Origin: Escherichia coli
Lineage (GTDB): Bacteria; Pseudomonadota; Gammaproteobacteria; Enterobacterales; Enterobacteriaceae
Direction: 5' to 3' (one strand)
NCBI RefSeq assembly: GCF_003334405.1
Contig: NZ_QOWM01000005.1
DNA: 64,000 nt
Below are positions 13,024 through 13,435 of this stretch, in pieces. Both the position numbers and the translations under genes were made by a program. The notes under the pieces were generated by a model that was not told where the DNA came from, ran no database searches, and worked only from the letters and a program-made list of their open reading frames with translations. Each line of letters starts with the position of its first letter. The first letter of the stretch is position 1.

Positions 13024-13137
13024 AAGAAAACATCCCCTGAGAGTTTAATTTTCGTCAAGATGCGTGGCGGACAATCCCCTGCCAGCGAAACGTTATCTTC
13101 CTGCTCCAGGTTTGCGACAATTTGCTGCGTCGCAAAA

Positions 13138-13153
13138 AAGCAAACGTTTAGCT
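13138..13153. promoter_or_regulatory. PurR-box-like motif AAGCAAACGTTTAGCT upstream of ghxP (one of four related copies)
   Basis: Core GCAAACGTTT matches PurR operator consensus ACGCAAACGTTTTCTT; related copies at 13086-13097, 13183-13195, 13282-13293. Confidence 0.35.
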
Positions 13154-13435
13154 CCGCGCATACAAAACGGGTGGTAAAAAAAGCAAACGATTATCCGGCG
13201 ATCATAGCGGCTTTTTCAACCGAAGTTTGCTGCTTTTTTCTCTTTTATTGTCTTGACGATGAAAAACCAGGCAATTGATGCGCAAACGTTATCGTCGGTG
13301 CGCAAGATTGCAGCGTTATCGAGCCGTATACCGTTCAGGATTGCGATAAAAAATCGTCTGAGATGACAAAAATATTGCGGTTAAAAAGTATACTTTTACA
13401 CTGGCGAAGAAACGTCGGTGACATACAATTAAAGC

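What the first reader, a model, noticed from the sequence alone, without database searches (positions are those of the whole stretch)
13086..13293. Four copies of a GCAAACG(T/A)T(T/A)ATC motif upstream of ghxP
Within about 210 bp upstream of the purine permease gene I read cgaaacgttatc (13086-13097), gcaaacgtttagc (13140-13152), gcaaacgattatc (13183-13195) and gcaaacgttatcg (13282-13293). The core GCAAACGTTT is the centre of the PurR operator consensus, which fits purine control of a guanine/hypoxanthine transporter. Four spaced copies is more than a single operator and could mean cooperative binding or a second regulator.
Basis: partly seen in the sequence, partly recalled or inferred. Interest (0 to 1): 0.4.

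Follow-up and report, generated by a model that had tools for sequence, protein, structure and literature searches.

The report
PurR operator cluster upstream of ghxP
These are binding sites for the purine repressor PurR in front of the E. coli guanine/hypoxanthine transporter gene ghxP, a regulatory link that is already published; only three of the four copies behave like real sites, and the fourth looks like the RNA pairing partner of one of them.

Summary
The window is E. coli; ghxP is 11674-13023 (-). The four strings exist, but they are not four equal copies. Two PurR matrices rank three of them as the best PurR boxes in all 64 kb: 13280-13295, 13138-13153 and 13181-13196. The copy at 13084-13099 scores near background.

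PurR control of ghxP is published. Copy 4 is the ChIP-chip motif of Cho 2011. A 2015 paper lists copy 2 among the sites shared with RegPrecise. That paper also predicted copy 1, and copy 3 was once predicted as a Fur box.

New detail from 80 Enterobacteriaceae species plus Salmonella:
- The three boxes are conserved. The middle one overlaps the only sigma-70-like promoter (-35 13219-13214, -10 13195-13190). That puts the boxes near -104, -5 and +39.
- The upstream box lies exactly 99 bp from the promoter box in 79 of 80 species, although the spacer sequence has diverged. Erwinia lacks this box.
- Copy 1 is not conserved as a PurR box. It pairs with the transcribed copy 2 in a conserved leader RNA fold (13161-13060) that matches no Rfam family.

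Verdict: a known PurR target. Multiple operators are plausible, cooperative looping is unsupported, and the interest is low to moderate.

The parts
13280..13295 (-). Its centre is about -104 from the predicted start. K-12 coordinates 4,278,207-4,278,222.
   Evidence: 18.3 bits and rank 2 with the leave-one-out matrix; rank 1 with the RegPrecise matrix. Identical to the ChIP-chip/FIMO motif of Cho 2011. Present in all 80 Enterobacteriaceae loci and in Salmonella. Absent in Erwinia.
13299..13305 (-). Invariant heptamer TTGCGCA, 20 bp upstream of the same heptamer at the end of the upstream box (13285-13279). Function unknown.
   Evidence: Mean pairwise identity 0.97 across 79 distinct sequences, next to flanks at 0.46-0.58. 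Not a PurR box by either matrix.
13214..13219 (-). Predicted -35 hexamer TTGAAA of the ghxP promoter.
   Evidence: Part of the only sigma-70-like site on the ghxP strand in 12950-13650 (10 of 12 matches, 18-nt spacer). GTTGAAA is invariant and the -35 to -10 distance is identical in 80 of 80 species. Also kept in Erwinia.
13190..13195 (-). Predicted -10 hexamer GATAAT. It puts the transcription start at about 13183-13184 (inferred, not measured).
   Evidence: No start-site data could be retrieved.
13181..13196 (-). Promoter-overlapping PurR box (copy 3), GGATAATCGTTTGCTT. Its centre is about -5, and its weak half is the -10 hexamer.
   Evidence: 11.1 bits, or 14.1 in the AGATAAT...CCT variant; 14.8 bits and rank 3 with the RegPrecise matrix. 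CGTTTGC directly after the -10 is kept in 79 of 80 species, in Salmonella and in Erwinia. The score is comparable with the second box in purR (10.9 / 13.7 bits) and with the glnB site (14.7 bits).
13138..13153 (-). Leader PurR box (copy 2), AGCTAAACGTTTGCTT. Its centre is about +39. When transcribed it also forms the 5' strand of leader helix P2.
   Evidence: 18.8 bits and rank 1. Listed as a yjcD site at -130 among the sites Elmas 2015 share with RegPrecise. TAAACGTTTGC is almost invariant in 80 species and in Erwinia, whereas its RNA partner varies.
13084..13099 (-). Copy 1, AAGATAACGTTTCGCT. A look-alike, not a conserved PurR box. Bases 13094-13084 form the 3' strand of leader helix P2.
   Evidence: 8.0 / 8.5 bits. 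Equivalent 16-mers in 78 sequences have a median of -1.6 and a maximum of 9.7 bits. Only ACGTTT is conserved and the GATAAC part is Escherichia-specific. It pairs with 13153-13143; the pair 13151:13086 is CG 31, UA 29, UG 15.
13060..13161 (-). Conserved structured part of the ghxP 5' leader RNA. P1 is 13161-13154 with 13067-13060. P2 is 13153-13143 with 13094-13084. P3 is the hairpin 13136-13111. P4 is the hairpin 13077-13069.
   Evidence: RNAalifold on 56 sequences. 96% of cells are paired against 33-59% with slid partners. Nine pairs show double changes, and 0 of 500 shuffles reach the observed values. P1, P3 and P4 are recovered on 78 sequences. The E. coli minimum-energy fold has the same architecture. 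There is no Rfam match.
11674..13023 (-). ghxP (yjcD) coding sequence, 449 aa. The Shine-Dalgarno AGGGGA is at 13038-13033.
   Evidence: ORF list. RefSeq annotation of identical E. coli DNA.

Best explanation
The region is the PurR-controlled promoter and leader of ghxP.

Three of the four copies are PurR operators, all in the same orientation. Each has a perfect CGTTTGC half and an imperfect other half.
- O-up is 13280-13295, at about -104.
- O-core is 13181-13196. It overlaps the -10 hexamer and the start site.
- O-leader is 13138-13153, at about +39.

When hypoxanthine or guanine is plentiful, the PurR-corepressor dimer binds these boxes.
- At O-core it competes with RNA polymerase. This step is inferred.
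- At O-leader it can block elongation, as reported for purB and purR. This step is inferred.
- O-up is an Enterobacteriaceae-specific addition whose helical phase relative to the promoter is fixed. It strengthens repression by a mechanism that is not known. Looping through PurR tetramers is unlikely.

The fourth copy (13084-13099) is not an operator. The operator core AAACGUUU is self-complementary, so the RNA segment that pairs with the transcribed O-leader necessarily looks like a second copy of it. Copy 1 is that segment: the 3' strand of helix P2 in a conserved leader fold.

Shown here: sequence matches, conservation, spacing and covariation. Taken from papers: PurR occupancy of the region and PurR- and adenine-dependent repression. 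Inferred: the start site, which boxes are occupied, and how each contributes.
For: - PurR matrices put the three boxes at ranks 1, 2 and 7 and ranks 1, 2 and 3 in 64 kb. The cluster never appeared in 300 simulated windows.
- Published PurR ChIP-chip region 4,275,855-4,276,485 (old K-12 coordinates) corresponds to window 13040-13670. It covers all the boxes, and its reported motif is O-up. The coordinate mapping was checked against three published site positions.
- O-leader is listed among the sites Elmas 2015 share with RegPrecise.
- Papers report PurR/adenine repression of ghxP.
- All three boxes are present in 79-80 of 80 Enterobacteriaceae species and in Salmonella. O-core and O-leader also persist in Erwinia.
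- There is only one sigma-70-like promoter. Its hexamers are invariant and O-core overlaps its -10.
- O-up to O-core is 99 bp in 79 of 80 species. The 39-nt spacer segment 13279-13241 is only 58% identical between species. The O-core to O-leader spacing, by contrast, varies from 43 to 157 bp.
- Cho et al. state that PurR bound inside purB and purR blocks elongation.
- Copy 1 is not conserved as a PurR box. It is conserved as the pairing partner of O-leader, and pair 13151:13086 passes from CG to UA through UG. The adjoining helix P1 has 5 of 7 pairs with double changes. The E. coli and Klebsiella minimum-energy folds contain the P2 helix.
- O-leader is far more conserved than its RNA partner. 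That points to an extra, DNA-level constraint on it.
Against: - No measured transcription start was found, so -104, -5 and +39 rest on a predicted promoter.
- ChIP-chip cannot resolve which boxes are occupied. Binding to O-core and O-leader has not been shown in any paper I could read.
- Conservation of O-core is confounded by the -10 hexamer and the start region.
- Conservation of O-leader is confounded by the RNA helix.
- Helix P2 has only one clearly covarying pair. An A-to-U change at 13147 in six species is not compensated.
- P2 is not in the Erwinia minimum-energy folds.
- Folding energies are not better than shuffles (z = -1.08 and 0.25).
- With the ChIP-derived matrix, the E. coli copy 1 (8.0 bits) is close to the purA site listed in RegPrecise (8.4 bits). 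Weak PurR binding at copy 1 in Escherichia is therefore not excluded.
Confidence: 0.7

Rival explanations
1. Only the published box (13280-13295) is a working operator. The other copies are conserved for unrelated reasons: -10 hexamer and start region for copy 3, RNA helix strands for copies 2 and 1.
For: Cho 2011 list a single motif for the region. Copy 3 overlaps the -10. Copies 2 and 1 are strands of helix P2.
Against: - Copy 2 is the best PurR match in 64 kb. Comparative genomics picked it out independently.
- Copy 2 is invariant while its RNA partner drifts.
- The CGTTTGC after the -10 is kept in 79 of 80 species and in Erwinia, where sequence after a -10 is normally free to vary.
- Erwinia has copies 3 and 2 but not copy 4. 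The published box therefore cannot be the ancestral or only operator.
Confidence: 0.1
2. The boxes form a cooperative array: PurR dimers on separate boxes contact each other and loop the DNA, as LacI or GalR do.
For: The 99-bp centre-to-centre spacing between 13280-13295 and 13181-13196 is frozen in 79 of 80 species despite sequence divergence. The one species with a 100-bp spacing has also lost the right half of the promoter box. In K-12, purA and purR carry box pairs 99 and 88 bp apart.
Against: PurR has no tetramerisation domain. No tetramers were seen by SAXS, and a LacI-PurR chimera showed no spacing-dependent looping in vivo whereas the GalR chimera did. The spacing from the promoter box to the leader box is not constrained (43-157 bp). 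From memory, not checked here: binding to the two purR operators was reported as non-cooperative.
Confidence: 0.1
3. A second regulator shares the region. This does not exclude PurR. Candidates are Fur at copy 3, or an unknown factor at the repeated TTGCGCA heptamers, with PurR at 13280-13295 acting by competing with it.
For: In Salmonella, yjcD rose 2.8-fold in a fur mutant. The predicted Fur site AAAAAGCAAACGATTATC is exactly copy 3. TTGCGCA at 13305-13299 is invariant, is not a PurR box, and lies 20 bp from an identical heptamer inside the upstream box. Salmonella has a third copy. A fixed distance from an upstream site to the promoter is typical of factors that touch RNA polymerase.
Against: By direct comparison, copy 3 matches the Fur consensus GATAATGATAATCATTATC at only about 11 of 18 positions, six of which are the -10 hexamer. 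The conserved bases are the PurR half-site CGTTTGC, not further Fur hexamers. No factor is known to me that recognises TTGCGCA repeats. Erwinia expresses ghxP from the same promoter without this module.
Confidence: 0.15
4. Copy 1 (13084-13099) is a genuine weak fourth PurR operator in Escherichia, as predicted by Elmas et al. 2015.
For: It was predicted as a new yjcD site at -76. With the ChIP-derived matrix its 8.0 bits is close to the purA site listed in RegPrecise (8.4 bits). The Escherichia-specific GATAAC raises its score above that of other genera.
Against: It is rank 34 or rank 9 in the window, among obvious chance hits. The strong half reads CGTTTCGC, one base out of register with CGTTTGC. 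The box is not conserved (median -1.6 bits). Its conserved bases are explained by RNA pairing.
Confidence: 0.12

Closest known systems
purR autoregulation by two PurR operators downstream of the promoter; the purB operator inside the coding region
   Same: PurR boxes lie downstream of the start site and act on elongation (stated in Cho 2011). One is strong and one is weak: the K-12 purR region has boxes of 22.0 and 10.9 bits 88 bp apart. This compares with the leader box at about +39 in ghxP.
   Different: ghxP also has a box on the core promoter and one at about -104. The ghxP leader box doubles as a strand of a conserved RNA helix. The details of the purR operators are from my memory of Rolfes and Zalkin 1990 and were not read here.
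purA promoter with two low-affinity PurR operators
   Same: There are two boxes, one of them very weak. In K-12 they are 99 bp apart (16.6 and 8.4 bits). The weak one is the site listed in RegPrecise. That is the same spacing as the upstream and promoter boxes of ghxP.
   Different: Whether the purA spacing is conserved was not tested. That purA has two functional operators is from my memory of He and Zalkin 1994; the paper is not held.
lac (O3, O1, O2) and gal (OE, OI) multi-operator control regions of the LacI/GalR family
   Same: The repressor belongs to the same family. Operators lie upstream of, on, and downstream of the promoter. The spacing between an upstream auxiliary operator and the promoter operator is constrained.
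   Different: LacI loops as a tetramer, and GalR dimers associate with the help of HU. PurR has no tetramerisation domain and its chimera did not loop. Membership in the 'looping operator' class is therefore not supported.
Purine-riboswitch leaders of guanine/hypoxanthine permease genes in Firmicutes (for example pbuG)
   Same: A transporter of the same substrates is preceded by a long, conserved, structured 5' leader.
   Different: There is no match to the purine riboswitch or to any other Rfam family. No ligand pocket or expression platform can be recognised. The Shine-Dalgarno sequence is not inside the conserved helices. This is a functional analogy only.

Membership tests
PurR operator (E. 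coli purine repressor box) | A 16-bp imperfect palindrome around a central CpG that matches ACGCAAACGTTTGCGT, scoring within the range of accepted sites. | tested here: met
   Met for 13280-13295, 13138-13153 and 13181-13196, with 18.3, 18.8 and 11.1 bits. The training sites span 12.1-24.7 bits, so 13181-13196 falls just below that range with this matrix. With the RegPrecise matrix they score 17.3, 15.7 and 14.8 bits; known weak sites score 11.9-16.9. NOT met for 13084-13099 (8.0 / 8.5 bits).
PurR operator (E. coli purine repressor box) | Conservation of the box in orthologous promoters. | tested here: met
   The three boxes are present in 79-80 of 80 Enterobacteriaceae species and in Salmonella. 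Two of them are also in Erwinia. Copy 1 fails, with a median of -1.6 bits.
PurR operator (E. coli purine repressor box) | PurR occupancy in vivo or in vitro. | not testable with these tools
   From a paper: an adenine-dependent ChIP-chip region of about 630 bp covers all four copies. Its resolution cannot assign occupancy to individual boxes.
PurR operator (E. coli purine repressor box) | Repression of the adjacent gene that depends on purR and on purines. | not testable with these tools
   From papers: Kozmin 2013 cites PurR-dependent repression of yjcD by adenine. ghxP is in the PurR-1 iModulon.
Looping (cooperative) operator pairs of the LacI/GalR family | A repressor able to bridge two operators (a tetramer or a dimer-dimer contact). 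| not testable with these tools
   From a paper: PurR has no tetramerisation domain, no tetramers were seen by SAXS, and a PurR chimera did not loop in vivo. This speaks against membership.
Looping (cooperative) operator pairs of the LacI/GalR family | A conserved, helically phased spacing between operators. | tested here: inconclusive
   99 bp in 79 of 80 species for upstream box to promoter box. That is 9.0 turns at 11 bp per turn but 9.4 turns at 10.5. The constraint could equally be relative to RNA polymerase. The spacing from promoter box to leader box is not conserved.
Fur box | A match to the 19-bp consensus GATAATGATAATCATTATC (three GATAAT-like hexamers). | tested here: not met
   Direct comparison of GATAATCGTTTGCTTTTT (copy 3) gives about 11 of 18 matches. 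Six of them are the -10 hexamer, and the other hexamers are not conserved.
Described structured RNA families (Rfam 15), including the purine riboswitch | A covariance-model match in the ghxP leader. | tested here: not met
   The only match in 12900-13700 at E up to 1 is sraL/RyjA at 13436-13576.
Conserved cis-acting structured leader RNA (generic) | Base pairs maintained by compensatory changes across species. | tested here: met
   Nine pairs have double changes. 96% of cells are paired against at most 59% in slid controls. 0 of 500 shuffles reach the observed values. P1 and P3 are confirmed on 78 sequences. P2 rests on one covarying pair.

The most novel reading that the evidence does not exclude
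The ghxP leader (13161-13060) may be an undescribed cis-regulatory RNA of Enterobacteriaceae and Erwiniaceae. In it the same ten nucleotides would serve twice: as a PurR operator in the DNA, and, once transcribed, as one strand of the closing helix (P2) of a three-way fold. The transporter would then be controlled both transcriptionally by PurR and post-transcriptionally through the leader. In most species the C-rich loop of P3 could pair with the Shine-Dalgarno AGGGG. In addition, the phase-locked upstream box at -104, together with the invariant TTGCGCA heptamer, would act through a non-looping mechanism not yet described for PurR.
Probability: 0.2. Interest if true: 0.55.

Novelty: already known. 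Interest (0 to 1): 0.3.

Why it matters
PurR control of ghxP is established, so the main reading adds nothing new to the regulon.

The modest value lies in the architecture. Different sources each list a different single site for this gene, and the comparison made here reconciles them into one picture:
- a promoter operator and a leader operator that go back to the common ancestor with Erwinia;
- a later, phase-locked upstream operator;
- one false site.

This picture tells curators which predicted sites to keep. It also gives a clean natural test case for how a strictly dimeric LacI-family repressor uses an auxiliary site 100 bp upstream.

The conserved leader fold is a candidate for post-transcriptional control of purine uptake in enterobacteria, where no purine-responsive RNA is known. 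It also illustrates a trap for motif hunters: the RNA pairing partner of a palindromic operator mimics a second operator.

Tried and rejected
- Literal motif GCAAACGWTWATC: not enriched and not in register for two copies. Dropped in favour of PurR matrices.
- Measured transcription start for ghxP: not obtained. Thomason 2015 is not held. There were no hits in the supplements of Kim 2012, Ettwiller 2016 or Mendoza-Vargas 2009. Conway 2014 has no held supplements. Two literature searches on transcription start sites found nothing useful.
- A second ghxP promoter near the upstream box or just before the leader box: the scan found only one promoter-like site on the ghxP strand. Candidates I read by eye (TTGCGC with poor -10s; TTGCTT...GTATGC) are not convincing or not conserved.
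- A divergent promoter on the + strand (TTGACG 13253-13258): Escherichia-specific, with a poor -10. Rejected.
- Regulation of ryjA by the upstream box: rejected. The box is conserved in genera where a GST gene, not ryjA, lies upstream.
- Segmental duplication as the origin of the copies: copies 2 and 3 share a T-run after the box, but nothing longer.
- Fur, IHF and CRP consensus comparisons by eye: no convincing match.
- Known RNA family in the leader: none.
- Thermodynamic support for the leader fold: not significant, so the case rests on covariation.
- Original purA operator paper: not held.
- Papers treating ghxP as a multi-operator promoter or describing its leader: none found among the 20 and 40 papers that mention ghxP or yjcD.
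Full report
WHERE WE ARE. The 801 bases around the finding are 100% identical to many E. coli chromosomes, where soxR and ghxP are annotated. In the window, ghxP is the 449-codon ORF 11674-13023 on the minus strand. soxR is 13569-14033 (-) and soxS is 14119-14442 (+). The sRNA RyjA/SraL is at 13436-13576 (+), with an Rfam score of 153 bits. K-12 MG1655 coordinates equal 4,291,502 minus the window coordinate. This mapping agrees with three published site positions.

THE OBSERVATION. All four strings are present, and the last one ends at 13294. They are not in a single register. 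Copies 1 and 4 are a base shorter than the proposed GCAAACGWTWATC, and copy 1 begins CG rather than GC. The literal pattern is not enriched: 5 matches against 6.9 expected, and only copies 2 and 3 are found here. The heptamer GCAAACG is also not enriched overall (20 against 16.4). Three copies within 143 bp occurred in only 18 of 1000 simulated windows.

PurR MATRIX SCANS. I built a matrix from the 27 other motifs in Table 1 of Cho et al. 2011 (PMC3159470), leaving the ghxP motif out.
- Copy 2 (13138-13153) scores 18.8 bits and copy 4 (13280-13295) scores 18.3 bits. They are the two best of 127,970 positions in the window. The training sites span 12.1-24.7 bits.
- Copy 3 (13181-13196) scores 11.1 bits (rank 7).
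- Copy 1 (13084-13099) scores 8.0 bits (rank 34).

The RegPrecise PurR matrix, taken from a supplement of Elmas et al. 2015, ranks copies 4, 2 and 3 first, second and third (17.3, 15.7, 14.8 bits). Copy 1 is ninth (8.5 bits). Accepted weak sites score 11.9 (purA), 13.7 (the second purR box) and 14.7 (glnB) on this matrix. No simulated window out of 300 had three hits of at least 11 bits within 160 bp.

WHAT IS ALREADY PUBLISHED.
- Copy 4 is the reverse complement of ACGATAACGTTTGCGC. Cho et al. give this motif for their PurR ChIP-chip region 'ryjA/yjcD', which was bound only with adenine. That region corresponds to window 13040-13670, so it covers all four copies and cannot tell them apart.
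- Copy 2 is the yjcD site at -130 that Elmas et al. list among the sites shared with RegPrecise. The same paper predicts copy 1 as a new site at -76.
- Copy 3 was predicted as a Fur box in Salmonella, where yjcD rose 2.8-fold in a fur mutant (PMC3212961).
- PurR- and adenine-dependent repression of yjcD/ghxP is reported or cited in PMC3809563, PMC8376909 and PMC6892915.
- None of the papers mentioning ghxP or yjcD that I could list treats the region as a multi-operator promoter or describes its leader.

PROMOTER. The only sigma-70-like site on the ghxP strand is TTGAAA (13219-13214), an 18-nt spacer, then GATAAT (13195-13190). The -10 hexamer is the weak half of copy 3. The inferred start is near 13183-13184. 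That places the box centres at about -104 (copy 4), -5 (copy 3) and +39 (copy 2). I could not retrieve a measured start site, so these positions are inferences.

COMPARATIVE EVIDENCE. I fetched ghxP loci from 80 species of Enterobacteriaceae.
- Copies 4, 3 and 2 are found in 79-80 of them.
- GTTGAAA and GATAATCG are invariant, and the -35 to -10 distance is identical in all 80.
- The heptamer CGTTTGC directly after the -10 is kept in 79 of 80. This is hard to explain by promoter function alone and fits a PurR half-site.
- The distance from copy 4 to copy 3 is 99 bp in 79 of 80 species. Yet the 39-nt spacer segment 13279-13241 is only 58% identical on average between species.
- The single exception is Mangrovibacter, with 100 bp. 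It has also lost the right half of copy 3.
- By contrast, the copy 3 to copy 2 distance takes 15 different values from 43 to 157 bp, owing to small indels and inserted hairpins.
- Salmonella has the same three boxes and the same 99 bp.
- Three Erwinia species keep the promoter, copy 3 and copy 2 but have no copy 4.

The promoter box and the leader box are therefore older. The upstream box, together with an adjacent invariant TTGCGCA heptamer (13305-13299), is an addition within Enterobacteriaceae that has since been locked in phase with the promoter.

COPY 1 AND THE LEADER RNA. Copy 1 is not conserved as a PurR box. Only ACGTTT is conserved, and the GATAAC that makes it resemble copy 4 is Escherichia-specific. 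The equivalent 16-mers score a median of -1.6 bits and at most 9.7.

RNAalifold on 56 distinct leaders predicts a fold with four helices:
- P1: 13161-13154 with 13067-13060.
- P2: the transcribed copy 2 (13153-13143) with copy 1 (13094-13084).
- P3: hairpin 13136-13111.
- P4: hairpin 13077-13069.

Support for the fold:
- 96% of cells are standard pairs, against 33-59% when partners are slid by 1-3 columns.
- Nine pairs show changes on both sides (79 cells, against 7-19 in the slid controls).
- No shuffle out of 500 reaches the observed values on four of the five measures; on the count of further pair types, 4 of 500 do.
- On 78 sequences that include the insertion-bearing species, P1 (AU 53, CG 8, UA 4; and UA 47, AU 16, CG 5) and P3 (CG 29, UA 27, UG 19; and AU 36, GC 29) are recovered.
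- In P2, pair 13151:13086 runs CG 31, UA 29, UG 15, with only 3 mismatches. The remaining pairs are nearly invariant and paired in 72-78 of 78 sequences.
- The E. coli and Klebsiella minimum-energy folds contain P2.

The operator core AAACGUUU is its own reverse complement, so its RNA partner must look like another copy of it. This explains copy 1 without PurR.

Weak points of the RNA argument:
- Only one P2 pair covaries.
- An A-to-U change at 13147 in six species is uncompensated.
- The Erwinia minimum-energy folds keep P1 but not P2.
- Folding energies are no better than shuffles.

The leader matches no Rfam family and its function is unknown. In most species the P3 loop is C-rich and complementary to the Shine-Dalgarno AGGGG. 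The sequence in this window has GCAGCAA there instead.

HOW IT MOST LIKELY WORKS. PurR with hypoxanthine or guanine binds three boxes. Binding on the -10 and start site excludes RNA polymerase. Binding at +39 can act as a roadblock, as Cho et al. describe for purB and purR. The box at -104 adds to repression in a way that depends on helical phase. Occupancy of the region and repression of the gene come from papers. The role of each individual box is inferred.

COOPERATIVITY. Classical looping is unlikely. PurR lacks a tetramerisation domain, no tetramers were seen by SAXS, and a LacI-PurR chimera showed no spacing-dependent looping whereas the GalR chimera did (bioRxiv 10.1101/477893). The frozen 99 bp therefore remains unexplained. 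It may reflect phase with RNA polymerase or upstream DNA wrapping, phased PurR-induced bends, or competition with an unknown factor at the TTGCGCA repeats. As an aside, K-12 purA and purR carry box pairs 99 and 88 bp apart. I could not test whether those spacings are conserved.

COMPARISON AND NOVELTY. The closest known cases are the multi-operator PurR targets purR and purA and the downstream roadblock operator of purB. The layout also resembles lac and gal, but the defining property of those systems, a bridging repressor, is not supported for PurR. The regulatory link itself and two of the boxes are already in the literature, so I rate the finding as already known.

What this analysis adds is the reconciliation of four separately reported sites:
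- three conserved operators and one RNA look-alike;
- the phase-locked upstream box;
- a conserved leader fold that has not been described.

These additions are modestly interesting and directly testable, but none would surprise a specialist greatly.

Noticed in passing
window 13299-13305 (- strand), with 13279-13285: The invariant heptamer TTGCGCA lies 20 bp upstream of an identical heptamer that forms the end of the upstream PurR box. Mean identity is 0.97 in 79 sequences next to poorly conserved flanks. Salmonella (L087) has a third ATTGCGCA about 50 bp further upstream. It is not a PurR box by either matrix, and no known factor comes to mind.
   Followed up: partly
window 13060-13161 (- strand): A conserved multi-helix fold in the ghxP 5' leader, with compensatory changes in P1 and P3 and no Rfam match. 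In most species the P3 loop is C-rich and complementary to the Shine-Dalgarno AGGGG. This window has GCAGCAA there, while another E. coli (L003), E. whittamii and E. albertii have GCCCCA.
   Followed up: partly
L054, L058, L060, L066-L068, L045-L047, L049, L080 (between the promoter box and helix P1); L071, L076-L078 (inside the leader); L037 (after P1): Klebsiella, Raoultella, Pseudocitrobacter, Kluyvera and others carry insertions of 45-110 nt in the leader, often forming an extra hairpin. The PurR boxes and the pairing segments stay intact around them.
   Followed up: partly
window 13176-13182 (- strand): A run of seven T residues begins two bases after the predicted start (GCTTTTTTTACC). 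It is present in Escherichia, Citrobacter and Kosakonia but is interrupted (TTAATTT) in Enterobacter. It is reminiscent of the UTP-sensitive reiterative-transcription sites of pyrimidine genes, but it is not conserved.
   Followed up: no
window 13436-13576 (+) and 13545-13575: The RyjA/SraL sRNA (Rfam RF01408, 153 bits) is convergent with soxR and shares a bidirectional terminator hairpin with it.
   Followed up: yes
L084-L087 and most of L004-L080, upstream of ghxP: In Salmonella, Erwinia and most other genera a glutathione S-transferase family gene sits between soxR and ghxP in the same orientation as ghxP. E. coli lacks it and has ryjA in that interval.
   Followed up: partly
L082 (K-12 4,404,566 and 4,404,665) and L083 (K-12 1,737,784 and 1,737,872): The purA and purR regions of K-12 each carry a strong and a weak PurR box, 99 bp and 88 bp apart. 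Both spacings are multiples of 11, and the first equals the ghxP spacing. This could be coincidence. Conservation was not tested.
   Followed up: no
window 13060-13278 (+): A 72-codon ATG ORF runs antisense through the ghxP leader and promoter. Nothing suggests that it is a gene.
   Followed up: no
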